NCBI GenBank assembly: GCA_001938485.1
Contig: MQRK01242333.1
Location: forward strand, 1 to 55,688
Direction of reading: 5' to 3'
DNA: 55,688 bases
DNA from: Girardia tigrina
Taxonomy: Eukaryota
Made by a program: the position numbers and the translations under genes. Below are positions 7,430 through 46,643 of this stretch, piece after piece; the first letter of the stretch is position 1, and every line of letters begins with the position of its first letter. A model generated the notes under the pieces. The model searched no databases and was not told the origin of the DNA. It saw only the letters and a program-made list of their open reading frames with translations.

Positions 7430-8190
7430 AATTAATATGAGCAAGTTATTGAATAATAACGGTTACTGTAAGTCCATCATAGACAGACTCACTCGTGAGA
7501 CTGTAGATAAAATAATCGAAAAAGAAAAAATCAAAAGTGAACAAATTAATAGTTTAAACATTGAAAACTGCTTTACCCTGTGTATACTCTAAGCTTATCT
7601 TACTCCGAGGGTTTTAAACACCTCAATAATTCGATCTTGAAATCAACAAATAACATTTTAAATTTAAAAATTATTTCTCAATCATTTAAAGTTGAGAATA
7701 TGTTTTGCAATAAATCACATACTCCTTTAGGATTGTGTTCGGACATTGTTTATCNNNNNNNNNNNNNNNNNNNNNNNNNNNNNNNNNNNNNNNNNNNNNN
7801 NNNNNNNNNNNNNNNNNNNNTCCAAGAACACAGTCAAAAAGGGGGAAAGAGTAATATTGCTGAGCATAAAAAACGTGTAAATGTAATATGAGCATAAATG
7901 ATTTGAAGATTTTTTGCAAGCATTTTAAGAATTATTGCGAGATAATGTCATGTGAAGCATTGTTGATAAGATCATGTGATCCTAAAATCAATGTTCAAAC
8001 AGCACTCTCAACTAATTTGTTAAGAGTTTTCGATTAGACTTACGTAAGTGATTACATAATCACTCATTTCTTATATAAAAGCAATAAAAAAGAACAAAAT
8101 CAGTGATCTGATGATGACGATTAAACTGTCGAAATATATTATCCTAAAATATATTTTTAAATGGCGTTTATTTGTTTATAATAAAAAATT
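7430..8190 (+). mobile_element. Penelope-like element 3' remnant (RT C-terminus/linker, GIY-YIG endonuclease, pLTR tail)
   Basis: LNNNGYCKSIID; LSYSEG; KSHTPLGLCSDIVY-[gap]-QEH...SNIAEH; EALLIRSCDPKINVQ; followed by a hammerhead motif and an aaatggcg tail. Confidence 0.85.
8105..8143 (+). ncRNA. Minimal type-I hammerhead ribozyme motif in Penelope tail
   Basis: gat-CTGATGA-t-gacg(attaaac)tgtc-GAAA-tata-TT|atc. Intact core, 4-bp stem II, palindromic ATATAT helix III, stem I gat/atc. Confidence 0.8.
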
Positions 8191-8371
8191 GACATCTTTT
8201 TTCAAGTTTAATTAATGTGAAGTTTGTTAAAAATTCATGTAGTCAAATATTTATTTATAAAATTCTAATTTTATATCACAATTTCAAAATATAACAAAAG
8301 TAATTTAAAACTATAAAAAAAATAAGTGATTAAAAAATCTAAAAAAAATCAAAAATTTTTTATTTGAATTT

Positions 8372-9450
8372 CGGTTTACTGTAACTTCTTTAAAAATCAT
8401 TTCTTCGAACGATAAATTCTTCGAATGCACTTTTTTTCAAAAATACCTTTTCTTTCAAAATAACTTGTTTTCAAAAATATCTTTTTTTTCGAAAATATTT
8501 TTTTTGAAAAAAATATTGAAAATAGCTTGAAAAGTAACAGATCATTTTTTTAGTAAGCTTTTACTTTTATTTATACTATTGAGGAAAATAAATACCTCTT
8601 TTTTTCTTAATACGGTCAAATGACCGAATTCGAAAAGACTGATAATATTACAAAATTTTTTTTATAAATCACATTATAATTCGGTTTTACAAATCGTACG
8701 AAAACAAATAATATCGTAAAAGCATGGCATAACGGATTTCAATCACTTTTAAATTCGTTTTGGTTATTTATGAAAGCTGTTAAACAAGAACAAAGTTTAA
8801 ACTAATTAAAAATGAAACAAAAATGAATGAAATGATCGAAACCCCCAACGAAAAAAAGAAATATCATGTTTTTGCATCAAGATGGTTCACTTTAACTTCT
8901 TCAAAAACAAAACAACATTTTTAAATGAAAAAAAAATTTACTAAATAAATGAAATTGGCGACATTTATATTGTTTTTTTTAAAAGGAGAAAAAAACTACA
9001 AATGATTAAAGTTTATTTAGAAACGATTATTAAAGTTTGTTGAAATTTATGGGACTTCAAGTTCTAATATTGAAAACAAAATAAGCACAAACTAACAATT
9101 GTACAATCTTGAAAAAACGACGATTTCATGGTCTGACTTTTCAACTTAAGTATATATTTCTGTCAAAGAAAATTAAAAAAATCTATGTTATGCCAAGATC
9201 CTGCGTTTGTTGTAATTCAATACATTCTAAGATAAATTATTTAAGTTTCCTAAAACTTAGTACGTTAAACCATTTTTTGAAAATAAATGAATCTAGTACA
9301 ACACATTTTTATAAAAGATTTTCTCGGTATCTCTGGGACCAAGAACCTGAGAGACATATCAACGAACTCAATTGCGTTGTGATTAAATTTCTCAAAAATT
9401 TTAGAAAAGACCACACTCCCTTCCATCGCTTTTTGCTTTACTCACATTTG
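8372..9450 (+). mobile_element. Degenerate Mutator-like (MULE) element: left end with ~15-bp periodic subrepeats plus transposase remnants
   Basis: cggtttactgtaac then repeated tttcttcgaa units. Protein remnants EIYGTS (xDGTF-like), QLYNL..FHGLTFQLKYIFLSKKIKKIY, and RHINELN...FRKDHTPFHRF (RTNN..E..H..HP-like). No right TIR found. Confidence 0.6.
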
Positions 9451-10481
9451 AATAAACAAAAAGGATAAAACCTAGAGCAAAAGATATTTAATTAATTTAA
9501 ATCGATTGTAACATTATTGTCATTGATAAAATGATTGAATTGTATCGAATAGCGAAAAACCTAGAGAGCCCACAAGACATTCAACAGTCAGTCCGACAAC
9601 AAAATCCCAGTGTCGCTCAATAGATCACGGAACTCACACCTGCAACAATCGCGAGAAATCAGCTCGATATTCAACAATTTCGACTAAAATTCTTTAATAA
9701 TCGATCGATTCATTTTCAAGTGTTTATCGAACAATACTTCAAATTATTTTTCAATTTTTCAAAGGAAACCATAACACAAATCGATTATTTTAAACAAATT
9801 CAAAATTTTATATTAAATTTCCATTTTTTTATAAAAATTAAAATGCTATACAAAAATCCATTTTTTTATTACAATTTCACAAAAAAATTTAAACATTATA
9901 CTGAAGTTTTGATTAAAATATTATTTAAAAACTTAATTTAGAAACAAAAAATACAAAAAACAATCTCCAACTAAAGTCATCCGAAAAAGAGTTTTACGAT
10001 AATTCTAAACATTATTCCTCATATATCTAAGATCTGAACTGATTTTAATTACTTTCTTATCGATCATATAGTCAAGACCTTGAATCTTAAAATTTTTTTT
10101 GAATACTTTTTCGAAATTCCATATCAAAATTTTTGTATTCATTTGTATGTTTCCAATTTTCATCAAATTTTGAGGGAGTGACAAGCATATAGAATTAAAG
10201 ATTTCAAATCAAGTACTACAATTTAAGGACAAAGGAAGTATTATTTGAATATTCAAGTTGGATAATTTCAATTCACTCTTTCTGACACGACAATGATTCA
10301 GCAGGTTACCCAGTCATTTCTAGCTAGGAATAAAACTCACTGGTACTGGCGTTGTAGCGCGCGTGCTGCCTTGGACATCTAAGGGTACTTACCTCTTATT
10401 GCTCCATTTCACTTAGCTAAAGGCTATTTACTCCTCTAAGAAGTCAGCATTTGTGATTTAACACGAATGTACTATATTACA

Positions 10482-10587
10482 GGTGTCGTTCGTAAATGGA
10501 ATTAACCAGAGAAATCACTCCACCAACTAAGAAAGACCATGCCAAGCACCCACTCAATCAAGAAAGAGCTATCAATCTGTCAAACCT
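10482..10587 (-). pseudogene. Isolated, diverged 18S rRNA fragment
   Basis: Reverse complement reads ttgacagattgatagctctttcttgatt...gcatggtc tttcttagttggtggagtgatttctctggttaattcc...acgaacgacacc, a universally conserved eukaryotic SSU segment, here with substitutions. Confidence 0.9.
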
Positions 10588-11279
10588 CAACCTCTTTTCC
10601 AACGCTTTTCATTCAAATTTCATTTTTTTGTTTTCAAACCCCAGGTACCTTTACTTTTACCTCCTGCAGATACATCCAATAATATCCGAATCGATTGTAA
10701 GCCATTTCAAACGTCCCAAATTAAATTCTTTCCCCTCAAAAATAAAATGTAAGTCCTTATTTAACAAAATTTTTAGAAATTAAAAATAAAATTAATTCTT
10801 TTTTTCTTTTAAACAATATTTTCAACTAATTTTCTCAAATTTAGTAAAAACATATTAAATTTCATTGAAAAAAGTTTTGAAAATGAATTTAATTTTTTAA
10901 TGCGAAAATAAATTTTATGTTTATATCATTTTTATAGAGGTAAAATTGAATTATTATGAAATATAAAGTTTGAATATTTTATACAAGTTTTACTGATTAA
11001 AATAGAAAAAGTAATTAAAATATTAATAATTTCATCGATTTATTGATTTATTTTTAACAGCCAATAAATGTAATATTGATTCGATTTTTATTTATTCTAA
11101 AGATTATTGATATTTTAATTAATTGAAATTTTTTTTATTTTTAATTTTAAAATTATGAATTTGGTTATGTTGAAATTTATTTTAAAAAGTTAGTTTCTTT
11201 AATCTAAAAATATAATTACTGTTCCAGAAAAAAACCTTAAATATTAAATAAAATAATAAAAATTAAATTTATAATTAAA

Positions 11280-11632
11280 TAACAAAAGCGCCATTTATAG
11301 GTATCAGATTTATTTTTAACATGTTTCGCCTTCACATGCATGTTCAGTCTTCTCTTTTAGGTTTGTAAAGCGATCTTCTTTTATACTTGCTTGGTTGTTA
11401 TGCAAGTGCTATTACGTAACCCGGGGATTAATTTATTATTGTCAATTAAAATATATTGATGCGATTGGATGTTTCACTCGCATGTTCAAGCATGGTACGA
11501 AATGCTTTATTAGAAGTGCTTCTGTGATGATCCTTTCACTACAATTATCAAAATTCGAGTTCAATATTTTGAATTCACTTTCCCAATTAACAGTTTCCCG
11601 ATCTTTACATCTCGTCAGATGTTCCAGAATTT
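11280..11632 (-). mobile_element. Penelope-like element 3' remnant (GIY-YIG C-terminus plus tail)
   Basis: Minus frame ILEHLTRCKDRETVNWESEFKILNSNFDNCSERIITEALLIKHFVPCLN. The tail keeps GAAA-catg-TT (half hammerhead) and aaatggcg. Confidence 0.8.
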
Positions 11633-12167
11633 ATAATTTATTTATATTATAAATTTTAAATGAAATTTAATATTTCAAATGTTAGTTCGATTAAAATAAT
11701 TGTTATATAAATTTAAACACAGGTAATATATAAATACATTTTAAATTCAAAAACCTTGATGTATTGCCATTTGTTCAATGTTTGTCTGTAGACCGCAAAA
11801 GTCAACTTGATAAGCAACAAAAAAGAGGGCTTTCCTTTCACTGAAAACGTGTAGGTTTAAAAGATAAAACTTAAATGGCTTGCTAGGCAGCCGCACTACT
11901 GTAATGCACTCTCAGTATAATGGGACATTCCACGAGGTAATGTTGGCTTGGTTTGTAGATAAGCCAGATAGATGAAGCTCTTTTCCACATATTGGTTATT
12001 CCTCGTGAAGTTATGGCTGTCATCCCACAAGAGTTTCTTGTGAAATTAGCTGATATGATTCCTCATATTTATTTTAAGTATAAATAATATTAAAACACAT
12101 AGATTACTATTTTTAATATATTACGGAGTTTCTTTTTAATTATCCTGATATATATTATATATTATAT

Positions 12168-12174
<7 letters not shown>

Positions 12175-12238
<64 letters not shown>
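12175..12238. repeat. Compound (TA)n(GA)n microsatellite
   Basis: Direct inspection. Confidence 0.95.
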
Positions 12239-12299
12239 AATAATTATGCTAAAGTTTTTTTAAAAGAATTATTTAATTTTGACATACTTTTCTACGCAA

Positions 12300-12430
12300 A
12301 CTTTCATTTAGATTTAATACTCCATCATCAGCAATGATAATTTAGTATTTATAAGCTTTAATGTTAGTTTTATAAAAGTTATATTTCAAGAGAAAGACTT
12401 TATTATATTTTCAAGTGTTTAGGATAATAT
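12300..12430 (-). mobile_element. Penelope-like tail, inverted copy of 13120-13212
   Basis: Reverse complement attatcctaaacacttgaa...taaaactaaca...ctaaattatcattgCTGATGAtgga aligns with attatccaaaatatcttgaa...taaaactaaca...ctaaattattattgttgatgatgga. Confidence 0.55.
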
Positions 12431-12699
12431 TTATTATATCCTTTTTATTTTTGTCCTTACAAAAGCTCAAGAAGACTTCAAAAATTTCAAGAATTGCTCT
12501 ATCTGGGATTGATTTCTGAAAAACTAAAAAAACTAATGTAAAGACTCGTACATTGGAGAAATCAATCAGAGTAAATAAACCAGATCAGCAACACAATTGA
12601 TGAAACCGAACAAAATACCAAGGATATTCCAGAAACTCAAAATAATTTAGCAACGAATCTTAACAATGGTGACAGAAGGGATCAATACCCAAGAAAATG

Positions 12700-12970
12700 A
12701 TATGTCTTGTCGTATCCAAGACTTATCTGGAAGTGAGAGAGATAAGATGTCCCTTTCGCGGATTGTATAAAGTCCACAAATGTAGACAAAAGCCAGCAAA
12801 ACTATGGAAAAACAATTCCTAAGTGATCTCTTCTTCCAGGAAAATTGAAAAAATCTCGGAGATCGAATCGAAACGACCACTTATCAGGCCTCTTGTTAGC
12901 TGAAAGAAAGTCTTTAGTTTAAGTGGACCCTCTAAAGAGCCTATATGCCCAATATGATTGAAAGAGGAGG
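12700..12970 (+). mobile_element. Degenerate dispersed element (copy B), Zn-finger-like
   Basis: Homologous to 5310-5690(-). Translations CPFADC and PICPI* suggest CxxC fingers. Confidence 0.55.
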
Positions 12971-12974
12971 TTCA

Positions 12975-13240
12975 CATTGAAGACACAAATCGTCGTCTCG
13001 AAATCTGTTTAAATGTATTATTATTTTTAATATATTATTTATCAGCATTGACGATGAACAAGGTAAAGCCCTTTCAAGTTTTAAAATAGTTAATTGAATT
13101 TCAAAAACATTTTGTCTCGATTATCCAAAATATCTTGAACATTTACATTAAATCAAAAACTTATTTCTTTAAAACTAACACTAAATGCTAAATTATTATT
13201 GTTGATGATGGAAAAAGAATATGGAAAACATGTTCAATAT
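12975..13240 (+). mobile_element. Highly degenerate Penelope-like 3' remnant with decayed hammerhead
   Basis: HIEDTNRRLEI (YIGxTxRxL-like), then attg-tTGATGA-tgg...gAAAA-catg-TT|caat with stem I attg/caat. Confidence 0.45.
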
Positions 13241-14658
13241 ATATTGCTTAAAAAGCTTTAACGAAATCATTTTTCTAGAATATAAAATTAGCGTTCACAA
13301 GACTCAATAATATGTATATAAATGAACATGATATATAGAACATTATTAATATCGGAAAAAATATGAAAAGTATTATATGGTAAAATTCACAAACATAATA
13401 ATCCTTTAATATCATTATTAATTTTTCATCTTTCATTAAGCTGCTTATAACAAACCATAAAATTTCCTCATGTTTGAGGAAGCTTATCGAAAGGAAGATA
13501 TTTTTATAAAATATAATGTTTCGTTAAATGGATTAAATAAAAAAAATAATGAAACTAATAATTTTTCATTATTAGTTTTAGTTAACTCAATATTAATTTT
13601 TTAATTGATTAATGTTATTTTGTTTCGAAAATAAATAATCAAAAAATTATGTATCAAATAAATAATAAATCACATTTTAAATTATTGCAAAAAATGATTT
13701 TTATTTTCTTTTTTATGAAACGAATTTCTTTCAAAGAAAAAAATGTAAATGAATTCTTTTATTATCTTTCTCTATAAAAATATGTCGATTTATAAAAATA
13801 TTAATTAATGATTATTATATTAATGAGTTGCGTTAAATATCAAAAGACATTTTGATATTTGTTATGGTCTTAAATCTTCAAACGAAATACTTTCTTTAAA
13901 GTAATTGAGTACACCGATTTCTTGTCTGCTCAAAGAATGAATATTTTTACTACAACAGATCTCTTTAATTTTCTTAATAAAATATATAAAAAAGAATTAT
14001 TCAAGTTTAAAAAAATTATTATTATTATTTATTTTGTTTTTTAAAAGGTTGTTCTAAGTTTATTTCTTTTCATTTTCTAAATATCATCCTTTTTCTACTT
14101 TATTTCTAAAAAAATAATCTTATTAAGAACACTGATATGATTTTCAATACATTTATTGATATCACAACTCAAATTACCTCAAGGACAATTCTCCATAAAA
14201 CTTTTGAAGTTAGGCATCGTTCTTGATAGATAACTTGTTTCTAAACCTCTAATTATTCAAAGAAATTTATAATACAATTTAATTTATAATTTCAATTACA
14301 AAATAATTTTAAATTATTTAAAAAAATATTTTAAACATATTATTTATGATTAAGATATATTAATTTAATTTAAAAGTTGTTGTTTACATTTTTGTAAAAT
14401 TGATTAAATAATCCGATGGTTTAAAATATTTAACATATCAATCTTCCATCTGGGTGGGAGAAACACAATCCTAAAACAACATACAAAACAATATATAATT
14501 AACATCATCTTATCTTATAAAAGCCCAAGTCACTCACTGCCTGCCTGCCTGCCTGCCTGCCTCACTAACGCTCATATTATCTACTTACAATTGTAAGTAG
14601 ATATTTATATTAATAATAATTCATATGAAAAATTATTATTAGCAGAATTTTCCATATG

Positions 14659-14720
14659 AATTATTATTAATATAATTATCTACTTACAATTGTAAGTAGA
14701 TAATTATATTAATAATAATT
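14659..14720. repeat. 62-bp perfect palindrome within a larger inverted duplication (14576-14705)
   Basis: aattattattaatataattatctacttacaa|ttgtaagtagataattatattaataataatt. Confidence 0.95.
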
Positions 14721-14893
14721 ATCTACTTGATATATGAAAATTTGATATATGAAAACAAATTATAAAAAGTGATATAATTGTGTCTTCTTTGTTTTAATGC
14801 ATCTGTTCCACATCCAAAATTGCTCAAATTAAAATTAAAAAATGAAATTTCTTTTCTCAATTTTACCCGTCATACATGACGGGTTATTTACTA

Positions 14894-15353
14894 ACGGATA
14901 ACATCAAATAGTAGGTGGACATGAAATAGTAGGTGTAATGAAGTTTTCAAAAAAATTTCCACCTACTATTAAAATAGTAGGTGGAATCAAATAGTAGGTG
15001 TATTTCGAAACATGATGTGTATGGTGAACGTTTTGTAAAAAAGTATTTGTCGGAATCCCAAAAAGAAACTGATCNNNNNNNNNNNNNNNNNNNNNNNNNN
15101 NNNNNNNNNNNNNNNNNNNNNNNNAGAAACTGATCACAGTGATAGTGAAGAAATATTAACTGATGATGCTTTTATTATCTATGATGAATAAATTCTTATT
15201 TTTCCAGTTTAATTCTTATTTATTTTTCAAGTTTAAGACAAGTGCAAAACAAAAGCACCAAATAGTAGGTGTAAACCAATATTGGGCGCCTTTTCAATTT
15301 TTTTTCCACCTACTATTAAAATAGTAGGTGTCCTACTATTTCATGTTATCCGT
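14894..15353. mobile_element. MITE with TA target duplication
   Basis: TIRs acggataacatcaaatagtagg / cctactatttcatgttatccgt flanked by TA. Multiple internal aatagtaggtg motifs in both orientations. Confidence 0.85.
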
Positions 15354-17080: not shown

Positions 17081-18352
17081 TTAGGTTGAACCTAAAGTCT
17101 TTTCGTATTTTCTACGTTTTTTTGTTCAATTGTTTCTTATTACCAAATAAAGATATTTTATATACATGTGTTATATGTTTTTAAAGCTCTTAAACTGCTT
17201 TATCACAATATATATTAAAACTTCTAATTAGTCCTTAATATAATTATTATGGTCTTTTAGAAAAATCATAGAAAATCTTGAAATTCGTGTTCTTTTACGC
17301 CATTACTGGAAACATGACTTAAAGGCAACTGCAGCAACAAAAAAATATGCGAAGTTAAAGGCGATAATGTGGTCTCAAATAGTACTGCACAAAATTGGTT
17401 CAAAAGGTTCAACGAATGCGACATTGACCTCAGAGACAATGCACGTTCAGGCCGACCTATCACCGTACATTCCGGAGCAATTCGTGAAGCCGTCGAGACA
17501 AATCCGTCAATAAGTACTCGCAGATTGTCGGCCGAACTCGATATTCCTCAAACATCCATTGTACGACACCTTCACACTCTTGGTAAGGTCAATAGACGAT
17601 GTCGAGAAGTGCCTCATGAATTGACACAAATTCAAGACGAAAAGCGTTTCGAAACTTGTCAAAAATTACTTACCGTTTCATCCGTCGAATTGTAACTTGC
17701 GATGAAAAGTGGGTTTAATTCAGTAATCCAGAAAAACAAAATCAATGGTTGGACCCTGGACAAATGGCGAAACCGGTAGCAAAAAGAGATCGTTTCTCAA
17801 GAAAGGCACTTTTGTGTATTTGGTGGAATTTCGAAGGTGTGATTCACTTCGAGCTGGTTCCAAATGGTCGTACCATCGACGCTGACGTTTACTGCGCCCC
17901 ACTTGATCGAATGTATGCGGCACTTTGCGAGAAATACCCCACTTTGATCAATCAAAAGTGAGTTCTTCTACAACAGGACAATGCAAAACCGCACACCGCC
18001 AAACAAACAATGGAAAAAAAATTAAAAGTCTCGACGCCTTTGAACTTCTTCCACACACAGCGTATAGTCCGGATCTTGCACCACCCGANNNNNNNNNNNN
18101 NNNNNNNNNNNNNNNNNNNNNNNNNNNNNNNNNNNNNNNNNNNNNNNNNNNNNNNNNNNNNNNNNNNNNNNNNNNNNNNNNNNNNNNNNNNNNNNNNNNN
18201 NNNNNNNNNNNNNNNNNNNNNNNNNNCCATAGATGGGTTCAAGCTATAGATTCAAATGGCCTTTACTTTGAAACTTAAATGTTTTTTATTTGTTGTAAAA
18301 TTATGTTTAAATTTTTAATAAAAGATACGAAAAGACTTTTGGTTCACCCTAA
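17081..18352 (+). mobile_element. Full-length mariner transposon with disrupted transposase
   Basis: ~28-bp TIRs ttaggttgaacctaaagtcttttcgtat / atacgaaaagacttttggttcaccctaa with TA TSD. Motifs WFKRF, RSGRP, VPHEL, IVTCDEKWV, QDNAKPH, YSPDLAP. Frameshifts, stops and an N gap. Confidence 0.97.
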
Positions 18353-26519: not shown

Positions 26520-26990
26520 TAGAATTCCACAGTTCCATACTTCGGTGACGTCAATTCTCACTGCGTTCGGTAATGTCAAACTCCTATGATGTCATGTCTC
26601 ATGACATCACTTGAGTTCAAATTCAGGTGATTTCATATGTCTTGACATCACCGGAATATGCAATTACATGAACTGATCCCCGTGCATATTGCACGATATT
26701 GTCTAAATATCAAAGGGGATAACTATATCATTTTGGTCGATGTCGAATAATGACGATTTCGATGATTCTTACAAGGAATTTCGTAAAAATTGAGATAACT
26801 CTGCATAGTCCGCATCGAGACGGTTCTGTTTATACAGCACCTTAGCTGAAAGGCGCCGGGAGCAAACTTAATTGATTTACTGTAAAATCAACACATTATT
26901 TGAAATAATAAATTATAATAATTATTATTAAAAATTAAAACAAAGTCGAAAATTCAGCTCACCCTTCATATACGACGGTTCTTTTTCTAG
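26520..26990 (+). mobile_element. Helitron-like 3' end and GC-richer interior
   Basis: acccttcatatacgacggttctttttCTAG|t resembles the hairpin ends at 540 and 14865. The 5' boundary is unresolved. Confidence 0.5.
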
Positions 26991-27680
26991 TATTATATAT
27001 TATATTTTTGGTGAATTTGAGGCTCTGTTTTAATAATTATAACAGATTATGTCAATTTTAATCAATTTCTACAACAAAAGTTTTTTACTTAGTTAATCTG
27101 TTTAATTTATTGTAATTTTTCGTTGGGTATTTTTTCTCATATTCTCTATGTAAGCTCATGACTTGACATTCACGTTAAAACTAATTTATATATTTATAAC
27201 TTTTTATTAAGCACTTTTTATTAAGCACTTTTTAAGCACTTTTCATATACCTTCACTGTATATCATCTTGTCAAGAATGGGCCATTTACTTTTGCCTATA
27301 TCTCAGCATTTAGACCACATAGAAACTTCAAATTTTCACNNNNNNNNNNNNNNNNNNNNNNNNNNNNNNNNNNNNNNNNNNNNNNNNNNAAAAATTAAAA
27401 CAAAGTCGAAAATTCAGCTCACCCTTCATATACGACGGTTCTTTTTCTAGTATTATATATTATATTTTTGGTGAATTTGAGGCTCTGTTTTAATAATTAT
27501 AACAGATTTTGTCAATTTTAACCAATTTCTAAAGCAAAAGTTTTTTACTTAGTTTAATTTATTTTTTAAATCTGTTTAATTTATTGTAATTTTTCGTTGG
27601 GTATTTTTTCTCATATTCTCTATGTAAGCTCATGACTTGACATTCACGTTAAAACTAATTTATATATTTATAACTTTTTT
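26930..27680. repeat. Near-identical duplication across an N gap (26930-27205 vs 27390-27680)
   Basis: The sequence right of the gap repeats the sequence left of it with a few SNPs/indels; likely an uncollapsed allelic overlap. Confidence 0.85.
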
Positions 27681-29099
27681 TTAATTTATAATAATTACTG
27701 TCTATTCTTATTGTAGTATGGTAAGTGAAATTATTCTACAATAATAATACAACTAATTTATTTAGAATAATTGTTATTTTCTTGTAATTTTATAATTATT
27801 TTTGTCCAAATTATATTTTTAATTAAAAAGTAAATAATTAGTTTATTAGCTTAAGCGCTAATTATTAAATTGTAATAAATCATCAAGCAAATGCAAGCAA
27901 TAAAAGCATTATAAAAAGAACATATTATTGTGTCTAAATTAATTTGTGTTTTTATTAATGTTTTTTACATTTTGTTTCAACATCTTCTATTCGATAAAAA
28001 TAAATATTACTAAAAATAATTATTGTTACTGGCAAAAGTAATTGTATATTTATATTTTTCTTTGAAACATTATCGGTTTACCTAAACATTGAAAGTTAAA
28101 AATCTTTTAAATAGCAATCGCATAATAAATTACCGCAACAAAACAGGTAAAATTCTTGTATACGCTTTTAGAACAGAAAATATTTTCCCTTCATCAGATT
28201 CTATGATGTTGAGGATTTTATTCGATCATATTACTTTTGGCCTTCAAAACGTCTTTTTATTTGAGAAAATTAAATTAAATATAACAAATATTCAGAATAT
28301 TCAGGATTTTGTAACCGACAAACATTTCTTAATTCGCTATATTTACGATATAGATATATAAATAAATAACTATATAAAATTAAATATATGATGTTTCATT
28401 GAAATACAATGCAGAACATATTCCATCGAACGCAAAGCAATATTAATATTGATGAGTCCAAGTAAATTTAGGGAAATGAGTTTGAGACAAAAATAGTTTA
28501 AAGTGTATTCTTCAGATTGATTTAATTATTGTGTCATTATCCTTTTAAGATAATTTTGTATAATATAATAAAAGATTAGTTTTCTATTTTGCATTAATTG
28601 TTTCATAAACAAGAAATGATATCAGAAAAATTCTAAACAATTTTCTAATTAAAATTACAAAACTAACTTGAAATGAATTGTAAAAAGTAATTGTAAGAAA
28701 CAGTTCTGATCAAAGTTTATGGCAATTAGTTAAATTAAAAAGGTCATAATGTATTGTTTCGGATTTAAATCATAAATTATCTATCGTTTTATTTATTTAA
28801 AAAACATCTCTCTCTTTGCCCAAAGACGATTCAAATCGACATTTTCCCGTTATATTTGAATGACAATCGTGGAAATATTATCATAGAAATATTATTGCCA
28901 TATTGATGATATATAAAATATATAAATACAAGATATAATTCAATAAAGAACAAGAAAATAGAATAAAAATTTAAATTAAAATGATGAGTTTGAATTTGAA
29001 ATAAATACAGTTCATTTATGATTTAATTTTTTATGTAACTCTGTGTATTGTTTGAGAACCGATTATTATAATTAATTTCATTGGTTGAATGAAATAGCT

Positions 29100-30719: not shown

Positions 30720-32870
30720 GAAAAACTCTATTTGGATCCAGCTTTGAGGTACAAGGTTAAAGGATTTTATGGTCCATTAATGTCATTAAATAAAAATATT
30801 CCAATAAATTTATTGTTTTTATGTCTGCATTGAACAAAGTTTGTGATATGAGTCGCATTACATCTTGCATTTGTTGTGTTGAGCTTCTTTCCAATTTCTT
30901 GTAGTATAAACACATGCTCACATAATCTTGAAATTGCAAAGTATCAATAAATTGATATGTTACATCGTCTTGTACTTCATTGTTTTTTCTTCGGAAAGTG
31001 TTTACAGCAAATTAGGTTAAAATTTCTGTCCAACTTAAATACTGATGTATAAAACTAAGTTAACAGGTCAACCATAATTTGGCTACTAATCAGCCTATTT
31101 TTTACTAAAAAAATAACTAAAAGAAAAGTAATAAGAAGAAATTGTATTACATATAAAAAACTAAATTGTATATATATATAAAGAAAATAAAGGCCTGTTT
31201 GAGTAGAATCTTCCTTCAGTAATGATTCCAAATCTTCATCTTCGAATCTTTTTGGTTTACCGGAACGCTCTTTGTCACTTACGTCGAAATCTTCACTTTT
31301 GAAACGTTTATACCAGTTCTCGCAAGTCTGTTGAGTTGGTGCATGTTGGCCATAAGTTTCTTCAAGAAGCCGAAAACTGTCTGCAGCTTTTTTCTTTTGA
31401 TTAAAGCAAAACAGTAGTGCTTCTCGCAAATGCTGTTTTGTTGGTATGTAAGTTGTCATGCTAAAACTTGATTAAAAATATGTTTATGACGCATTTAATG
31501 TCAATGACCTACTTAATTTTAAAGCCTCGATTTCAGCACTTTAAAAATCTGTACGTACGACTGTAAAATAATGCTTATTACAAAGGTTACACCATCTCTT
31601 AGAAAATCCAAAAAACTAAGTTGTACACCTAATATATGTGTGATAAAGGAAAAGAATTTAATGATGATGCAAATGGTGAAGCAACAGGAAATGAATCCAT
31701 TTATGAAGACCCAAAAGAAATGTATTCGGAAAAATTGCTAATTTTGATAAAATGAAAAAAAAGTAGGAAAAGAAAAGAATTTTGGTTATTTCACCTGATG
31801 GAAATTGAATGTTTTCTATGTTAGTTATCCTTAAGGAGCAATCTTGAAACCTTTTTGAACATGTAAATATAATATAAATCATTATAATATCAAATATTCA
31901 CAATAAATGCTCTAAATCAGGAAATATGAAAAGATCATTAGAAATCATGATTATCCAGTATTTATATTTAAATGTGCAGGAAAATTCTTTGCTTCCCCTT
32001 GACTCTTGAAATTGTTGCAAAGACACTGATATTATCAATTATGTTGTCTCAGAACAAACAAGATAAAATAATGATGGTACCACCCAAAGTTGTTGAATTT
32101 CTTAAACTCATGGGAAATGTTTATTTGCATTTACAAGGCATTCCATCAATCCTTTTTTTTCATGCCTTTCTTAATTTTATTAATATTATATCTCAAAGAA
32201 TAAAACTTTTTAAATTAACTTACTCAATACATAAATTGATTTTTATCACCAAAATATAAAAAGCGTGATAAAGTTCTTTAAGTGTTCTAGAGGATATTTT
32301 GAAAGACCCCCAAAATATATTAATGCCAATCAGTTATATTTATTACCTTCAAATATTTTTTTCATAAAAATTTCTTTATTATGTCACTGGTGGAAAAATG
32401 TGTTTTTTAATCATTTTTATACGAAATACAATAAAAATTGAAATAACATAGAAGCTTTGAGTGTATACATATTTTCAAATACTTACACATTTTGTCTTTG
32501 TACATATTAGCAAAAGTAATATTAACATTGTTAGATGCTGTTGGTACATCTTTGGAATAAATAGAAACTGATATTTTTTTAAATTCATACATATCACATT
32601 CTTACTATAAAGGTTGATAAATATACAATCTTTCTTATCAAAATTTTAATATAACTTACCACATTTTCGAAACTAAAAATTTTCATTAATATGAGCAACT
32701 GTTTATCTAATTATGTGATTTATTTTGTTAATATTTTGAAAAACTGGTAGTACAATTTCCATCACTACCAATCTTCCGACTTGTAGAATGTCGCACTCGG
32801 TGTTCGAATGAGCATACCAATTTGGACATAAGTTGGACATATTTTTTTAAATTCATACATATCACCATTA
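30720..32870 (-). pseudogene. Decayed multi-exon gene of unknown product, interrupted by a mariner
   Basis: Short GT-AG intron-like segments on the minus strand (gtaagt donors near 32659 and 32484; tatag, ccaccag, ctctag acceptors) separate protein-like reading frames with scattered stops. Confidence 0.35.
31196..31632 (-). mobile_element. 5' portion of a Mos1-like mariner (3'-truncated)
   Basis: TA-ttaggtgtacaacttag TIR. ORF MTTYIPTKQHLREALLFCFNQKKKAADSFRLL...WYKRFKSEDFDVSDKERSGKPKRFEDEDLESLLKEDSTQT, after which homology stops. Confidence 0.93.
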
Positions 32871-34662: not shown

Positions 34663-35090
34663 AAATTAAGAATTAAAAGCTTTAATCCAAATACAATATT
34701 TACACTCTTTATTTCTGAAATTATTATTATTTAATTAATTTTTAATAAACTTTATTTTAATTAGATTTGTTATAATAATTTAAATATTTTTTATTTACAA
34801 TTTTAAATAGGTTAATAATTTATTTGTTTAATTTTAATATTTTTCTATTTAGAATTTAAACATTTTTATATTTCTAATTAAAATAAATAGTATTTGCTCA
34901 GTCAAGGAATAAGTATTCAATAGTGGTGTGGCGTAAAACTATCTATTTTTACTTTTTATTTGTAGGGGTTACGTATTGCGTTTAACTAATGACTGTTAGT
35001 AAATAAAAATGATATTTTTTAATATAACACACATATATATATACGAATTTTCTAACAAAGAATAAAAATAATCAAGTGGGTTAATTTACA

Positions 35091-35749
35091 AATAAATAAG
35101 CTGGTTGTTCCGCCCGGACCCAAGTTGGGATTATCAATCGGGTGATGGTAACAGAGTTGCGCGACAAATGAAATTGTGGAAGCTTTGATGTTGAATGCTG
35201 GACAATAGAAGCATTAGTTCACCAAAATTGTGTTTTCCGCTCCTTCGACTTGTCTTCAGCAATTTGAATCATTCAGAATAAATATGCCAGGATGATCATT
35301 ACTCAGATAACATTTGTTAGATATTTCCTTGAATATTGTTCGTTTGGTCAGACCAAGCTTTTTNTATATATATATATACGAATTTTTTAACAAAGAATAA
35401 AAATAATCAAGTGGATTAATTTACAAATAAATAAGCTGGTTGTTCCGCCCGGACCCAAGTTGGGATTATCAATCGGGTGATGGTAGCAGAGTTGCGCGAC
35501 AAATGAAATTGTGGAAGCTTTGATGTTGAATGCTGGACAATAGAAGCATTAGTTCACCAAAATTTTGTTTTCCGCTCCTTCGACTTGTCTTCAGCAATTT
35601 GAATCGTTCAGAATAAATATGCCAGGATGATCATTACTCAGATAACATTTGTTAGATATTTCCTCGAATATTGTTCATTTGGTCAGACCAAGCTTTTTAA
35701 ATGCAGTTCTAATGATAAAGGTCTCCACGTTGAACGAACAAATTCTCAT
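35091..35749 (-). mobile_element. Degenerate non-LTR retrotransposon 5' region (AP-endonuclease start), duplicated across a single N
   Basis: MRICSFNVET matches the APE first strand (xRIxxxNV). 35031-35363 is repeated almost identically at 35365-35697. Confidence 0.5.
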
Positions 35750-39840: not shown

Positions 39841-40269
39841 ACTCATCCCCAAAAAGATATTTAAAACTTATCAATGAAACTTAATTAAAGAAAGACAAAT
39901 TACCATCCAAATCAGCAATATAACACATTCAAAAATCTTTCAATCAGCTGTACTTTCACATTTCAACAGGATTTAATTCTTCTGGATCTTAGGAAACCAA
40001 TGGTTATAAATAAATGAGATGATATAATTGCATCGGCTGTTTCTGGATATTTGTTACGAGAAAATATTATTGAAAAAAAATTGAAGAGACTTTAAAATTA
40101 ACTGAAAAATAATTATATTTTTTAGTTTTTGTAACCAAAAAATAAATAAAATAAATAAGTTTAAAAAAACCAAATAAACAGGTGTTGCCAAAATGGCATA
40201 TTAAAAATACATTACTTGATCAATAAACCACATCGTAGTGGTAATTGTTTTGTTATAAAAATAAGACCG

Positions 40270-40315
40270 TTGTGATTGGCCAATTTCTTGTTAATTGGGC
40301 GTTTGTGATTGGTTT
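40270..40315. promoter_or_regulatory. Cluster of CCAAT/ATTGG boxes upstream of the eIF4A remnant
   Basis: gtgATTGGCCAATttcttgttaATTGGgcgtttgtgATTGG. Confidence 0.35.
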
Positions 40316-40572
40316 TTAAGTTTTGTGAATGTGGGTTTGGTCAAATATTAATAATGTTTATGATTCATTTTTTGTTTGGATGTAAAAATTGTATTGTTAT
40401 AGCAAAATTAGATATTTTACAAAGATCGATATTTTGTCTCTAAATTGAATTGAAAAGCACATTAGTTTCATAGTGGTTTATGAAATTTTCTTATTTGATG
40501 AATTTATTAATTAAGAGCATTGGAAATAACGAACAAAAATTCAAAAGAACAGGAGCAAAACTGTGTCTCCAG

Positions 40573-40955
40573 AGGGATAGAAATGAATTAGAAAAAGTGA
40601 CAGAGAGTTTTGACGATATGAATCTGAAAGAGGATTTGTTCTACGGCATCGGAAGATCAAGTACAATTTGGCAAAGAGCGGTAATGCCGTTTGTCGGTGG
40701 ACGTGGTGTGATATATAGTGCACGGTCGGCCACTAAATCATGTACAAGAAGCGGTGGAACGCGAATTCATGAGATTATTGGTAATCTGGAGAAAGGGTTC
40801 CAAGTGATCGTCGGGTCTTCTGGTCGTATCTACGACATGATCGTGCGAAGGAGCCGGAAACAGATTCGATTCAAATGTTCGTTCTCGATAAAGCTGATGA
40901 AATGTTAAGACAGAGTTTCAAAGTGCGGTTTCAAAGTATGATTCAGATTATCGGA
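40573..40955 (+). pseudogene. eIF4A: eIF4A (DEAD-box helicase) pseudogene fragment with internal deletions
   Basis: ESFDDMNLKEDL, STIWQRAVMP (Q motif), GGT, VIVGSSGRIYDM (motif Ib), MFVLDKADEML (DEAD changed to DKAD). Walker A and motif Ia are missing; frameshift near 40860. Confidence 0.9.
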
Positions 40956-42745
40956 AGTTACGTTTACGGTATTTCCAACCAATTATANNNNATTCTCTCA
41001 CCTTCGCCATTGCGCGACTGTCACGCCCAGCCCGCTCTACAACAAAACATATTTGAGAAAAAAATCTTTTAAAACTAATGGAAGAATAGATTTTGTTAAT
41101 ATCTCCAATTCCAATATAAATATATTAATTCAAATAATTTTTTTAATAACTTTATTTTAAAATAAATGACATAAAAAACGTTTTTTGAAACATTTTTTTC
41201 TACTGTTTTTAGCATTTTTAGTGGGTAAAATTGATATTTTAATNNNNNNNNNNNNNNNNNNNNNNNNNNNNNNNNNNNNNNNNNNNNNNNNNNNNNNNNN
41301 NNNNNNNNNNNNNNNNNNNNNNNNNNNNNNNNNNNNNNNNNNNNNNNNNNNNNNNNNNNNNNNNNNNNNNNNNNNNNNNNNNNNNNNNNNNNNNNNNNNN
41401 NNNNNNNNNNNNNNNNNNNNNNNNNNNNNNNNNNNNNNNNNNNNNNNNNNNNNNNNNNNNNNNNNNNNNNNNNNNNNNNNNNNNNNNNNNNNNNNNNNNN
41501 NNNNNNNNNNNNNNNNNNNNNNNNNNNNNNNNNNNNNNNNNTTTTTTTCGAAAATTCAAAAAAAAACAAATTAGAGGAAAAATGTTTAAATTATTAATAA
41601 ATTTATTTTATGGGGAAATTTATTTCCAATAAACAGAAATGGTTCGTGAATTTTATTATTAATAAAAAATTATATTTTAGAATTAATATTAATTTAAAGA
41701 AAAATTTTAGTTAATTTGTAATATGTTTTAATAGAATAAAAACAATATTAGAAAAAATAAATATAATTAATTAATTATATAAAATATAAATATAATATCA
41801 AATTTTTAGTAAGAAATTTTATCTCATTTTAAAAATCTTCTAAATAAATTTATTTATTAATTATTTAACTTTTTTACTTATTAATTTTTCTTACTTCTTT
41901 CATTTTTCAAACTGAAAGATTAACAATCTTACTTAAGGACTCTTAATTTAACATAGAGATTCTGTCATGTAACCCCTCATAAACCTTACACAAATGGTAC
42001 CATTTTTATACTATCGATCAAGTGACATTGTTTAATAATAATTTATGAAAGGTTTTTAGAAAACACGATATATATAATTTCTGAATCATATTAGATCTAA
42101 TTATCAAAAATAAATAAATCAAATTGACAGAGTTTTCATATTTAAAAGTGATATTCTACTTATTAAAAGTGAAAAGGAAGCTACACAATATAGTTTTTAT
42201 CTTTAGTAATTGTTACACTTCCTTAATGTAATATAAATATTAAATAAATGAATAATTAATTTAGTAGAAAAAAGTTATATTTTTATAACAATGTAACACA
42301 GAGAAACGAAAATATTTTAACGATAAACTAAAATTCGGACATTGGGAGCAAAGCTCTGATTTACAGTTTACTTTGATTCTCAAAATTCTAGACTTTTTAG
42401 TCTATTCGAGAGATCTTTAAAGGTCGAAATAAAAAGGATTTTCAATCTGGTATTAGTTAACTTCACCTTCTTTTTATTTATCTGTAAATTGAAAAATAAC
42501 AGATTCCTTTAATAAAAAGAATAATATGAACTTCATAATTTCTTAAGTCGTGGTTACTAGTGGGCTAGTCGTTTGAGAAAGTATTAAACAAAAGGTCTTA
42601 ACGTGTAAAACTTCTTTGAGTTTTCGTGTTAATATGATTTTATTTTGTCTTGTAATTGATCTATTGCAAAAGGGTCGTTGAAGGATGTCTTTTTGTCTCT
42701 CTAAGCTGAATTAGGAACAAATATTATATTATTGATCTGGATATA

Positions 42746-43309
42746 CGAGGGGTGTCCCAAAAGTTTGCGGACTAATAAGTAACAACAATATAAGCAATAT
42801 AAGAAAAGTAACAACCTGACTTTTAGAAACGCCTGTAATAGCTGCTATCTCATGGATAGTGAGGAATCTGATACCAAGAATGACTGCCTCGATAACTTTC
42901 ACATTTTCTTGACATCCGGACGTTGTTGGTCGCCCACAGTGTTCATCATCCTCCAATGATTGACACCCTGCCTGGAATCGTTGCACCCACTTAAATTCTT
43001 CCCATAGCGGCATCACCAAAGAATCGGTGTAAACGGTGCACAATATCTGCAGTCTTCCTTCCCGAGGAAATAGATGATTGCTCGTTGAGATTTCACTGCC
43101 TCTTCCATACTAACTACAAGAGAGAAATATGACAAATTAATACATTCGTATGTCACACACATGCCGACGGGCATCCAATGTGAGTTCACCTACATTACAA
43201 TTGGTTGGTTCCCCTCTCATGTCATTGTACACACACCGCGCGTTACAGTCACGTACACACGTGACCACGCGATATTCTCTCAGTCCGTGAACTTTTGGGA
43301 CACCCCTCG
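42746..43309 (-). mobile_element. Internally deleted mariner with both TIRs
   Basis: TA-cgaggggtgtcccaaaagtttgcggact / agtccgtgaacttttgggacacccctcg-TA. Only the N-terminal transposase is retained (QRAIIYFL, WVQRFQAG, EDDEHCGRPTTS). Confidence 0.95.
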
Positions 43310-44927
43310 TATTAATGTAGGTCGATTATACATAAATAATCAATTTATAACATACTATTTTTCTTCATCAAGTTTAGAATTCATTAACACCAAATTTTAT
43401 TTCTATGATTTTTCAAACAATGATTTTTTAAACAAATTTTGAGGAACAATGCTTCATTTTTTAGCACAACCAGAGATTCTATTTGAAATATAAATATTGT
43501 TATACAATTTTAATTAATTTAAGTTTTATAATTTAGGTATAATAAATTATAAACGTTTTTTTGACGAAAATTTAATCTCAATCTGTTTTTTATTTAATAA
43601 AAAAATTTTTAGTTCTATTATAAACTAATTTTCTTAAACTATTGTTTACATTTATTCATTTTTACCGAAATTAAATTATTCTTAAAATTATTTTTTTTAC
43701 TTCTAGAAAACTTCTTTAATAGTTCATTCTTATTAAATAAAATCATTTTAATTAGTAAAACATTATTTTAACAAATCTTAACTATAAATATGATTTTCAA
43801 TTTAAAATTTTCAAAAATTTAAAGTTTACCAAAAAAACCTTATTTTTTAATTAATTGAATCATTTAATCTCTAAATAAATCTCCAAACAATTTTTCCATC
43901 TTTGTTGAGTTAGTGTTTGCGAAAGATGACCNNNNNNNNNNNNNNNNNNNNNNNNNNNNNNNNNNNNNNNNNNNNNNNNNNNNNNNNNNNNNNNNNNNNN
44001 NNNNNNNNNNNNNNNNNNNNNNNNNNNNNNNNNNNNNNNNNNNNNNNNNNNNNNNNNNNNNNNNNNNNNNNNNNNNNNNNNNNNNNNNNNNNNNNNNNNN
44101 NNNNNNNNNNNNNNNNNNNNNNNNNNNNNNNNNNNNNNNNNNNNNNNNNNNNNNNNNNNNNNNNNNNNNNNNNNNNNNNNNNNNNNNNNNNNNNNNNNNN
44201 NNNNNNNNNNNNNNNNNNNNNNNNNNNNNNNNNNNNNNNNNNNNNNNNNNNNNNNNNNNNNNNNNNNNNNNNNNNNNNNNNNNNNNNNNNNNNNNNNNNN
44301 NNNNNNNNNNNNNNNNNNNNNNNNNNNNNNNNNNNNNNNNNNNNNNNNNNNNNNNNNNNNNNNNNNNNNNNNNNNNNNNNNNNNNNNNNNNNNNNNNNNN
44401 NNNNNNNNNNNNNNNNNNNNNNNNNNNNNNNNNNNNNNNNNNNNNNNNNNNNNNNNNNNNNNNNNNNNNNNNNNNNNNNNNNNNNNNNNNNNNNNNNNNN
44501 NNNNNNNNNNNNNNNNNNNNNNNNNNNNNNNNNNNNNNNNNNNNNNNNNNNNNNNNNNNNNNNNNNNNNNNNNNNNNNNNNNNNNNNNNNNNNNNNNNNN
44601 NNNNNNNNNNNNNNNNNNNNNNNNNNNNNNNNNNNNNNNNNNNNNNNNNNNNNNNNNNNNNNNNNNNNNNNNNNNNNNNNNNNNNNNNNNNNNNNNNNNN
44701 NNNNNNNNNNNNNNNNNNNNNNNNNNNNNNNNNNNNNNNNNNNNNNNNNNNNNNNNNNNNNNNNNNNNNNNNNNNNNNNNNNNNNNNNNNNNNNNNNNNN
44801 NNNNNNNNNNNNNNNNNNNNNNNNNNNNNNNNNNNNNNNNNNNNNNNNNNNNNNNNNNNNNNNNNNNNNNNNNNNNNNNNNNNNNNNNNNNNNNNNNNNN
44901 NNNNNNNNNNNNNNNNNNNNNNNNNNN

Positions 44928-44961
<34 letters not shown>

Positions 44962-45004
44962 TTGTTATAATATAATACAGGTTAATGAAAATTTAGTCAA
45001 TTTC

Positions 45005-45033
45005 ATGACGGTTGATCTGTCGAAATATATTGT
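45005..45033 (+). ncRNA. 5'-truncated hammerhead motif (same family as 8105 and 46603)
   Basis: at-gacgg(ttgat)ctgtc-GAAA-tata-TT|gt; the CTGANGA box is lost. Tail motif atggcgtttgatttgtttata at ~45226 matches 8161. Confidence 0.55.
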
Positions 45034-46602
45034 TCTTATTGTAAATATCTGACTTTTTAAATCACATCTATATAAAGAATTTTTAGCTTTTAAATCTTTC
45101 AAAATATGGAACGATTAAGACGAACAATTATTTAACCTTCTTTTTATTCTTCTTATTATTTTTTATTAATTATTAATATTATTAGTTTTTAAATTTTAAA
45201 ATAATCATGAATTATAAGTTTAATGATGGCGTTTGATTTGTTTATATTAATTTCATTAATTGATTTTATTTTTTAATTGTTTTATATGAAAAAAGTACTT
45301 TTAATACATAATAATTCATACGAATGTGTTTTACAGTGAAAATAAATTGAAAAATAAGTACATCAATTGTAATCTTTTTATTTGAAAAAATCTATCTCTC
45401 ACTGTTTATTTTATTTAAAAAAATATTTTTTATAAGAAAGACGGTTATTATTCTGTATTTTGAAATACAATTCCCATTTCAGGAGAAAAACTTTATTATA
45501 AATAATTCTTTTAAATATAAAATTACTTTTAATAATGAAATATGACCCTTGAAATATGATTTATTAATATAATTTATTTAAGGCCAAAAAATAAAAATAA
45601 ATTTTATTTTTTTAGTTTTTTAGACTTTATTTTAATTTAAAATCAATTTTATGAATATTTTGGTTTTTAAAGAACATATTTATCAAAAATATGAGTAAAA
45701 AAGAGGAAAATTTACACCTTAACATTTATAATTGTTAATTGACATTAAAAGTTTTTCTCTAAAATAAAAGATAAAATAGAAGTAAAAAAATGATTTTTTA
45801 ATATGATTACAGTTACAATCAACTTCATAAATCGTTAATATATCATTATTATAATATCATTACTATTAATAATAATAATTTTCAATTAAAAACTTAATTT
45901 CCTTTCCCATTTAAATGAGATTTTATTTTTTTTTATTTTTATTAAGGAAATATTGTACTCCACAAAAAACAGGAAATAATTAATTTAATAATTAAACTCT
46001 GATATAACGGCCTTCTGCCATCCGTAGATTTCTTTTCATTTCTTCCGTCTACTTCTAATAATCTTCTTTCGCTTCCTTGGCTGAATCGTTTTGATTAATC
46101 CATTTTGTGTTACAAAATTTATTATTTAGGTTTTCTAAGAAAAGTAGTTTATAAAAATTTAAAAGCCCAATCGAAAAACGTAATAAAAAATAATTGTTAT
46201 TTATTTGCTTTTTATAAATTATAATAAAAAAATTATTATTATTACTCGTTATCATTATTTAAGTGAAAGATTAATTTTTACATACAGGAGCATTATAAAA
46301 TATATTTTTGTAGATTTTTATAAATAAACTTTTCATAAATGAATATTTGTTTGACTAAATAATATATTTTTTGCAATTACTTAAAAATTGTTTTTAATCA
46401 AAAAAAATTAAAAATCTTTATTAACAATGTTTTTAATTTATTTTATTAATATATTTTTATTTTTAAAGAAAAATTATTACATTTATTGTTCAATGTAGAC
46501 GTGCATTTTTGTATTTATTATTATATTTTTATTGATGAAGTGAAATCTAAATGATAATTTTCTATGAATAACAAAACTCATCGATTTAAAAATATATTTA
46601 TT

Positions 46603-46643
46603 GAAAATATATTTCAACGGATCAACCGGCATCTTCAGGTCCC
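46603..46643 (-). ncRNA. Hammerhead ribozyme motif with stem mismatches
   Basis: Reverse complement ggac-CTGAAGA-t-gccgg(ttgat)ccgtt-GAAA-tata-TT|ttc. Core intact; one mismatch each in stems I and II. Confidence 0.65.

What the first reader, a model, noticed from the sequence alone, without database searches (positions are those of the whole stretch)
8105..46643. High density of hammerhead motifs from at least three lineages, sorted by helix-III palindrome
About seven full or decayed motifs: CGCG type (43), TATA type (8105, 45005, 46603-) and CATG type (11315-, 13198, with its inverted partner 12320- lacking that half). The tetramer varies but stays palindromic. That is what dimer-dependent cleavage predicts, and it would restrict pairing to like-with-like copies. 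The TATA copies share a gac(g) stem II; two have no adjacent coding remnant, suggesting solo pLTRs or short non-autonomous ribozyme retroelements.
Basis: partly seen in the sequence, partly recalled or inferred. Interest (0 to 1): 0.7.

Follow-up and report, generated by a model that had tools for sequence, protein, structure and literature searches.

The report
Penelope hammerhead relics, one retrozyme end
The motifs are real but mostly worn hammerhead RNA sequences left at the ends of Penelope-type jumping genes, at the ordinary density for this genome, with the already published self-complementary design that likely makes them cut in pairs; one copy instead ends a 652-base head-to-tail repeat that likely travels as an RNA circle.

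Summary
The seven motifs exist and beat shuffles (3 strict versus 0.01), but only two (46, 8108) are intact. Density is ordinary: 2 seen, 1.5 expected from 37,715 genome-wide matches. Six are 3' stubs of Penelope-like elements (PLEs). Both longer TATA copies sit behind a GIY-YIG remnant and the third runs into an assembly gap, so 'solo' is unsupported.

Palindromy holds genome-wide: TATA, TTAA, CATG and CGCG make 33,044 of 37,715; CTAG is a fifth. Each switch changes two bases, as dimer cleavage predicts; this design is published (Cervera 2014). Five tetramers serve 18 families, so the tetramer alone is no family code; stem I, also intermolecular in a dimer, is predicted to add most specificity.

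The CGCG copy at 46 ends a ~652-nt head-to-tail, rod-folding unit without RT or endonuclease: retrozyme-like, a known kind. Unexplained: a 174-codon open frame starts at its ribozyme-core ATG, without amino-acid selection. The scan noted PLE hammerheads and retrozymes before on other DNA; this unit returned no look-alike.

The parts
1..108 (+). 3' end of the ~652-nt CGCG retrozyme-like unit; intact minimal hammerhead 46-80 (predicted cut after 80), then tail running into (TA)n; cut off by the contig start
   Evidence: 92% to the L162 unit; 100% over 105 nt to L082; window starts at contig base 1
7437..8214 (+). 5'-truncated Penelope/Poseidon-type PLE (family F1a): RT-thumb/linker and GIY-YIG remnant 7437-8034 (gap 7755-7820), intact TATA hammerhead 8108-8140, tail
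   Evidence: tblastn; 39 other places at 95-97% among the best 40 scored of 3,225 candidates; family member L019 hits RVT_1 at 7e-10 and GIY-YIG at 1.4e-4, just under the cut-off
11318..11630 (-). PLE stub: GIY-YIG C-terminus 11630-11475 and decayed CATG hammerhead 11347-11318 (G8 changed to C, stem I lost)
   Evidence: HMM iE 1.5e-11 and tblastn 9e-11; scan
12250..12520 (-). Inverted, diverged partner of the 13202 end; keeps only the 5' half of the core (12331-12320); bounds approximate
   Evidence: local alignment; blastn
12745..13284 (+). Decayed CATG-family PLE end: short remnant of the IGETNRHL endonuclease motif near 12970-13000, dead hammerhead 13202-13234
   Evidence: 70% to L049 and 80% to L074 beside their endonuclease, 80% to the L144 tail; 66% to L072
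44960..45062 (+). Stub of TATA family F1b: CUGA core lost, stem II-GAAA-TATA-TT at 45005-45031; abuts a TA run and a 1-kb gap
46527..46907 (-). 5'-truncated PLE of family F1b: GIY-YIG C-terminus 46905-46735, TATA hammerhead 46638-46606 with intact core and broken stems
   Evidence: 83% over 381 nt to L263

Best explanation
Six of the seven motifs are minimal type I hammerheads in 5'-truncated, mostly decayed 3' ends of endonuclease-bearing Penelope-like retrotransposons, and the seventh ends a 652-nt head-to-tail unit that lacks reverse transcriptase and is likely copied by Penelope enzymes; in active elements the ribozymes are predicted to cut only as pairs. Mechanism: helix III is A-NNNN-U, which in one copy leaves a 2-nt loop. 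Two copies pair their 6-nt palindromes, and each core then cuts the other copy. Geometry requires stem I to form between the two copies as well (inferred). The natural partner is the second pLTR or the next unit of the same tandem transcript. Selection keeps the tetramer self-complementary, so families switch only between palindromes. Specificity would come from tetramer plus stem I together (predicted). Reverse transcription starts downstream of the cut site on uncut or circular RNA, which leaves a tail and 5' truncations (inferred from copy ends and PMC11167929). The lone copies in this window are likely inert relics.
For: Endonuclease remnants lie directly upstream of 8108, 46638 and 11347, with a short one before 13202. 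117 of 321 hammerhead-like hits in fetched loci have a GIY-YIG end within 450 nt upstream. Genome counts: 37,715 versus 29 control and 5,433 versus 14 for short stems. Four palindromes make 33,044 of 37,715; the rest matches about 3.3% neutral decay per site. All 13 families with 4 or more copies have a palindromic majority. Endonuclease trees split a T..A clade (TATA, TTAA) from a C..G clade (CATG, CTAG, CGCG), with AT/TA swaps in both. Self duplexes are more stable than every cross duplex. For the unit: sharp boundary in 38 of 40 best places, tail-to-head junctions, 259 exact junctions genome-wide, a 651-nt back-joint in contigs of 3 of 4 runs, circular z of -5.7 to -10.8 in 4 of 4 copies, an older ~75% subfamily with the same bounds, and pair-keeping changes 20 versus 12.5 expected, p=0.005.
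Against: No cleavage was tested. MFE dimers of the two intact window copies do not adopt the active fold. AU-only palindromes give very weak duplexes (-0.8 and -0.2 kcal/mol). Rfam finds no hammerhead in the window. Published activity of minimal PLE hammerheads is low even as dimers (PMC4209133), and a Poseidon hammerhead needed protein to cut and was dispensable for insertion in vitro (PMC11167929). PLE 3' ends also fold better than shuffles (z -0.4 to -4.9, 5 of 5). The runs are only guessed to be RNA, so the back-joint may be genomic tandem DNA. The unit's relation to a PLE endonuclease is not significant (E 0.02-0.13), and no partner PLE was identified.
Confidence: 0.87

Rival explanations
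1. The tetramer is a family-specific dimerisation code that by itself restricts pairing to like-with-like copies.
For: Cross duplexes between different tetramers are weak or positive; each family has one tetramer.
Against: Only 5 tetramers for 18 families; TATA is used by 5, TTAA by 5, CATG by 5 and CGCG by 2. Six of 62 same-tetramer cross pairs can also form 3 or more stem I pairs, and 4 of 26 come within 1 kcal/mol of the self stem I. A partner on the same tandem transcript makes a code unnecessary.
Confidence: 0.1
2. The TATA copies are solo pLTRs or a short non-autonomous family.
For: 45005 shows no coding remnant in the visible sequence.
Against: 8108 and 46638 carry GIY-YIG remnants, and their families have RT-endonuclease bodies. 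45005 abuts a gap. Motifs are often cut upstream by contig ends (12 of 30 within 150 nt upstream versus 3 of 30 downstream).
Confidence: 0.05
3. The 652-nt unit is a tandem DNA repeat or tiny PLE deletion derivative spread from multimeric linear RNA, with no circular intermediate.
For: Genomic partial tandems exist; PLE insertion does not need cleavage (PMC11167929, passages); contigs cannot show circles.
Against: Strand-specific rod fold (sense z -6.8, antisense -2.5), structure-keeping substitutions, and a core and palindrome kept in both old and young subfamilies.
Confidence: 0.3
4. The palindromes serve something other than RNA dimer cleavage, such as a DNA site or a protein-bound monomer.
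For: Protein-assisted cleavage of the Anolis Poseidon hammerhead (PMC11167929); very weak AU duplexes.
Against: The sequence changes freely among five palindromes while symmetry is kept, which a protein site would not predict (inference). Dimer constructs cleave better than monomers in PMC4209133 and PMC7229834.
Confidence: 0.1

Closest known systems
Minimal and palindromic-helix-III hammerheads in pLTRs of metazoan PLEs (Cervera and de la Pena 2014, PMC4209133; Lunse et al., title only)
   Same: Type I core, unpaired base between positions 9 and 10.1, G10.1-C11.1, short stem I, palindromic 15.2-16.2 and loop 3, thousands of single truncated copies, opposite-strand pairs 100-700 nt apart.
   Different: Nothing of kind. 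Here five tetramers are tied to endonuclease clades in one genome, with about 43,000 pattern matches; one coding family closes stem II with G-U.
Penelope/Poseidon EN+ PLEs (PMC8557442 passages; PMC11167929)
   Same: RT followed by C-terminal GIY-YIG, 5' truncation, inverted 5' copies, tail beyond the ribozyme, ATG inside the ribozyme core.
   Different: No full-length copy was examined; clade assigned by eye from the missing linker zinc finger, not by an RT tree with references.
Metazoan non-LTR retrozymes (PMC7229834; bioRxiv 10.64898/2026.07.22.740005)
   Same: Head-to-tail unit with one type I hammerhead, low GC, strongly self-paired, no RT, co-occurs with PLEs; 652 nt is within the 51-972 bp range of the preprint.
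   Different: The ribozyme is the minimal PLE type. Arrays seen are short (about 2 units at most in a fragmented assembly). The unit holds a 174-codon open frame from the core ATG, whereas retrozymes are described as non-coding.

Membership tests
PLE minimal hammerhead | CUGANGA core, extra 5' base, stem II, GAAA, UH | tested here: met
   Met by 46 and 8108 and by family majorities; the other five window copies are damaged
PLE minimal hammerhead | Palindromic helix III | tested here: met
   33,044 of 37,715; 13 of 13 families with 4 or more copies
PLE minimal hammerhead | Lies in the pLTR downstream of a PLE ORF | tested here: met
   50-240 nt after the GIY-YIG end in family representatives; window copies 8108, 46638, 11347
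PLE minimal hammerhead | Cleaves as a dimer | not testable with these tools
   Needs in vitro kinetics
EN+ Penelope/Poseidon PLE | RT plus C-terminal GIY-YIG | tested here: met
   L019: RVT_1 7e-10 over cut-off; GIY-YIG 22.5 bits against cut-off 22.6; PF01541 places over cut-off
EN+ Penelope/Poseidon PLE | RT groups with the Penelope/Poseidon clade | not tested
   No reference RTs aligned; linker zinc finger absent by eye
EN+ Penelope/Poseidon PLE | 5' truncation with inverted or tandem pLTR | tested here: met
   Inverted partial copies in several of L001-L030; window 12331-/13202+ is a diverged candidate
Non-LTR retrozyme (CGCG unit) | Tandem units each with a type I hammerhead | tested here: met
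   successive hammerheads 647-653 nt apart in L165, L166, L169, L183
Non-LTR retrozyme (CGCG unit) | No RT or endonuclease gene | tested here: met
   0 of 97 hits have an endonuclease upstream; no Pfam, Atlas or credible phmmer hit
Non-LTR retrozyme (CGCG unit) | Encodes no protein | tested here: inconclusive
   174-codon frame open but no amino-acid selection
Non-LTR retrozyme (CGCG unit) | Stable self-paired circle | tested here: met
   (prediction only)
Non-LTR retrozyme (CGCG unit) | Expressed as circular RNA | tested here: inconclusive
   Back-joint in contigs of 3 of 4 runs; RNA status guessed, contigs cannot show circles

The most novel reading that the evidence does not exclude
The CGCG family is a PLE-mobilised 652-nt ribozyme circle that is translated. 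It folds as a rod and cuts by a dimeric minimal hammerhead. It keeps a 174-codon frame open from the ATG inside the ribozyme core across the unit junction (273 stop-free codons round the circle; shuffles reach at most 143). The two lineage-level length changes inside the frame are 3 and 12 nt, while those outside are 1-2 nt. If the frame is kept for ribosome passage or for a fast-evolving peptide, this is a genome-integrated, coding, viroid-like retroelement between retrozymes and PLEs.
Probability: 0.15. Interest if true: 0.7.

Novelty: new member of a known kind. Interest (0 to 1): 0.3.

Why it matters
As given, the finding re-observes a published design. Two things are of use. First, one genome offers a natural series of five palindromes and varied stem I sequences, which makes the dimer model and cross-family cutting directly testable. 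Second, the CGCG unit is a young retrozyme-like family (2,475 long-stem CGCG matches, of which the 100 listed look like this family) whose open frame could show how a PLE shrinks to a circular RNA parasite.

Tried and rejected
Rfam at E up to 10 gave no hammerhead hit and five weak unrelated matches. TRF (period up to 500) found no tandem array holding a hammerhead in the window. Other CTGANGA..GAAA hits at 50651, 51978, 38470, 35594, 35259 and 11618 lack the stem/palindrome layout and were set aside by eye; 11618 lies inside the endonuclease remnant. Pfam on 12 window ORFs found no PLE domain; tblastn with own-genome PLE pieces did. The unit as a decayed GIY-YIG: two faint collinear echoes, E 0.018 and 0.13, not significant. 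Protein-level selection on the unit's frame was rejected: 11 synonymous, 31 nonsynonymous and 1 stop at lineage level, against 25% synonymous expected and 46/152/14 in singletons. Homologues of the frame: one same-family protein and three repeat-driven hits that I judge spurious. An autonomous partner of the unit was not found among 29 loci of the older subfamily. The first tree had four long, out-of-frame rows and was rebuilt with 10 rows, leaving out 8 families without a clean frame. Sequencing-run contigs do not show RNA level or circles. Lunse et al. could not be read. The host taxon was not determined.
Full report
1. Observation. The window is bases 1-55688 of contig C242333 of a 1.43-Gb, AT-rich genome. 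All seven motifs are visible. A strict descriptor finds 46+, 8108+ and 46638-, all palindromic, against 0.01 in 200 block-wise dinucleotide shuffles. A relaxed descriptor adds 11347- and two non-palindromic chance hits, against 0.79. Only 46 and 8108 are intact. 11347- carries G8C, a change that abolishes cleavage in a Poseidon hammerhead (PMC11167929; passages and section 3 part 2 read). The window is not unusually dense: the genome holds 37,715 matches of the long-stem pattern (control 29) and 5,433 of a short-stem pattern (control 14). For the first pattern 1.47 are expected per window and 2 are seen.

2. What they belong to. The 8108 region matched 3,225 candidates; the 40 scored gave 39 other places at 95-97%. 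Their loci carry RT and GIY-YIG frames and often an inverted partial copy. Using those frames, endonuclease remnants lie at 7437-8034, 46905-46735 and 11630-11475. A short trace precedes 13202, within sequence 70-80% like that beside the endonuclease in L049 and L074. 45005 is a stub of the 46638 family whose homology runs into the TA run at the gap 43932-44927. So the statement that two TATA copies lack coding remnants is wrong for 8108 and 46638 and cannot be judged for 45005. Apparent solos are also an assembly effect: 12 of 30 motifs lie within 150 nt of a contig end upstream, 3 of 30 downstream.

3. Palindromes. TATA 10,952, TTAA 10,860, CATG 8,757 and CGCG 2,475 make 33,044 of 37,715. 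By hand, 13 of the 100 listed matches are non-palindromic, mostly one change from the family tetramer. The remainder equals about 3.3% decay per site. For a sample not chosen by the ribozyme I took GIY-YIG places (147 found; 90 fetched). This added a coding CGCG family and a CTAG family. Clustering 321 hits gave 25 clusters. I split one and used 18, leaving out 8 singletons, five of them non-palindromic (TGCG, TTGA, CGTA, GAGG, CGCT). Two of those five are old relatives of the CGCG unit, one resembles the 13202 family, and two were not traced. All 13 families with 4 or more copies have a palindromic majority. After dropping loci fetched with a fixed tetramer and duplicates, 189 of 219 hits are palindromic; part of that sample was chosen by DNA likeness that includes the tetramer. 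Endonuclease trees separate T..A from C..G families (97/93, 100). The inner pair takes the states AT, TA and GC, and AT/TA swaps occur in both clades. A monomer needs only the outer pair; given it, the inner pair is palindromic 29% of the time. Four or more two-base switches that all land on palindromes have a rough chance of 0.29^4, about 0.007 (my estimate, few events). This supports pairing between molecules.

4. Like-with-like. In a double hammerhead one copy's core surrounds the other's cut site, so stem I is also intermolecular (inference from the geometry described in PMC4209133). Tetramers are shared: TATA by 5 families, TTAA 5, CATG 5, CGCG 2, CTAG 1. Among same-tetramer pairs of different families, 6 of 62 can form 3 or more contiguous stem I pairs, against 12 of 18 self pairs. 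By energy, 4 of 26 come within 1 kcal/mol of self and 9 of 26 cannot form the first pair. Tetramer plus stem I would thus give near family-specific recognition with some leaks, such as the F1a core on F1b. These are crude predictions: self was the best stem I partner for only 6 of 13 families, and free folding of two window copies gave inactive dimers. Since tandem transcripts supply a partner in cis, no selected code is needed.

5. The CGCG copy. Window 1-108 is not from the coding CGCG family. Homology upstream of its ribozyme stopped by about 600 nt in all 29 loci examined. A search with the far end gave a sharp boundary in 38 of 40 places, and the base before it is nearly always the tail of another unit. 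There are 259 exact junctions, and contigs of 3 of 4 public runs show a 651-nt back-joint, with RNA status only guessed. Copies end a few tens of bases past the cut site in TA runs, often with inverted pieces, as PLEs do (PMC8557442, passages). Monomers fold as rods: circular z -5.7 to -10.8 (4 copies, 12 shuffles each), antisense -2.5, PLE ends -0.4 to -4.9. An older subfamily at about 75% has the same bounds. Of 28 changed strong pairs 20 stay paired (12.5 expected, p=0.005), but only 1 is a double change, no more than chance. This works like a non-LTR retrozyme (PMC7229834, part 2 of 6 and passages; bioRxiv 10.64898/2026.07.22.740005, parts 1-3 of 5).

6. The open frame. The majority of 14 young copies reads 174 codons from the ATG in the core across the junction, and 273 stop-free codons round the circle; 2,000 shuffles reach at most 143. 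L187 holds a natural 223-codon ORF. PLE ORFs also start in the ribozyme (PMC11167929). Against a protein: lineage-level changes are 26% synonymous, as expected without selection, and no credible homologue was found. For a kept frame: old-versus-young indels of 1-2 nt fall outside it, and the two inside are 3 and 12 nt. However, a 2-nt deletion is shared by 4 of 55 young copies, one fixed stop appears in the old majority, and that majority read only 17 codons from the ATG, which I put down to misalignment at the 12-nt duplication. It remains unexplained.

7. Known and new. Cervera and de la Pena 2014 (PMC4209133; parts 1-2 of 4 read, no supplements) describe these motifs, their palindromic helix III, the dimer model and low in vitro activity. 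A review (PMC6765202, passages) repeats this and cites Lunse et al., which is not held and which I know by title only. Its alignments, and the supplements I did not open, may already tabulate the tetramers. Searches for hammerhead + heterodimer + Penelope (0 papers) and for palindrome and loop 3 terms found no cross-family test; the library lacks most subscription papers. Earlier notes of this scan reached the same reading on other windows of this and other genomes; a sequence look-up of the unit found nothing.

8. Verdict. Real, mostly dead PLE hammerheads of a known kind at background density. The palindrome rule is confirmed, the family code is not, and the non-autonomous idea is right for a different copy than proposed. 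Interest 0.3.

Noticed in passing
L187:135-806 (+); unit family of window 1-108: Long open frame from the hammerhead-core ATG across the head-to-tail junction of the 652-nt unit, without amino-acid selection or homologues.
   Followed up: yes
L157, L149, L156, L142, L137: Five CGCG-unit copies lose homology at the same internal point about 460 nt upstream of the core, and inversions break there too: a possible truncation hotspot at a small hairpin.
   Followed up: no
window 10350-10590 (-): Decayed 18S rRNA fragment (Rfam SSU match E 0.06); another lies upstream of a unit copy in L137.
   Followed up: no
window 1316-2454 (+): Two overlapping ORFs that look like a Gypsy-type gag (label from recall; no Pfam hit).
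   Followed up: no
window 17318-18278, 31055-31471, 42729-43109: Mariner/Tc1 transposase remnants (HTH_48 at 5.5e-8 and 3e-18 for the first two; only weak HTH hits for the third).
   Followed up: no
window 40474-40908 (+): ORF resembling a decayed eIF4A-like helicase start (recall; no Pfam hit).
   Followed up: no
window 5324-5660 (-) and 12745-13000 (+): A repeat fused directly to the IGETNRHL endonuclease motif in L049 and L074: a possible chimeric PLE subfamily.
   Followed up: partly
window 35033-35698, 52908-53860, 26930-27684: Near-identical direct duplications (97-99%); the last two flank 50-N gaps and may be assembly artefacts.
   Followed up: no
window 14576-14704: 59-nt inverted repeat, 97% complementary, with nested palindromes beside a (CTGC)n run.
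   Followed up: no
family F2 (L193-L219): Coding PLE family whose hammerhead closes stem II with G-U and whose cut triplet varies (UA, UU, UC) among copies.
   Followed up: no
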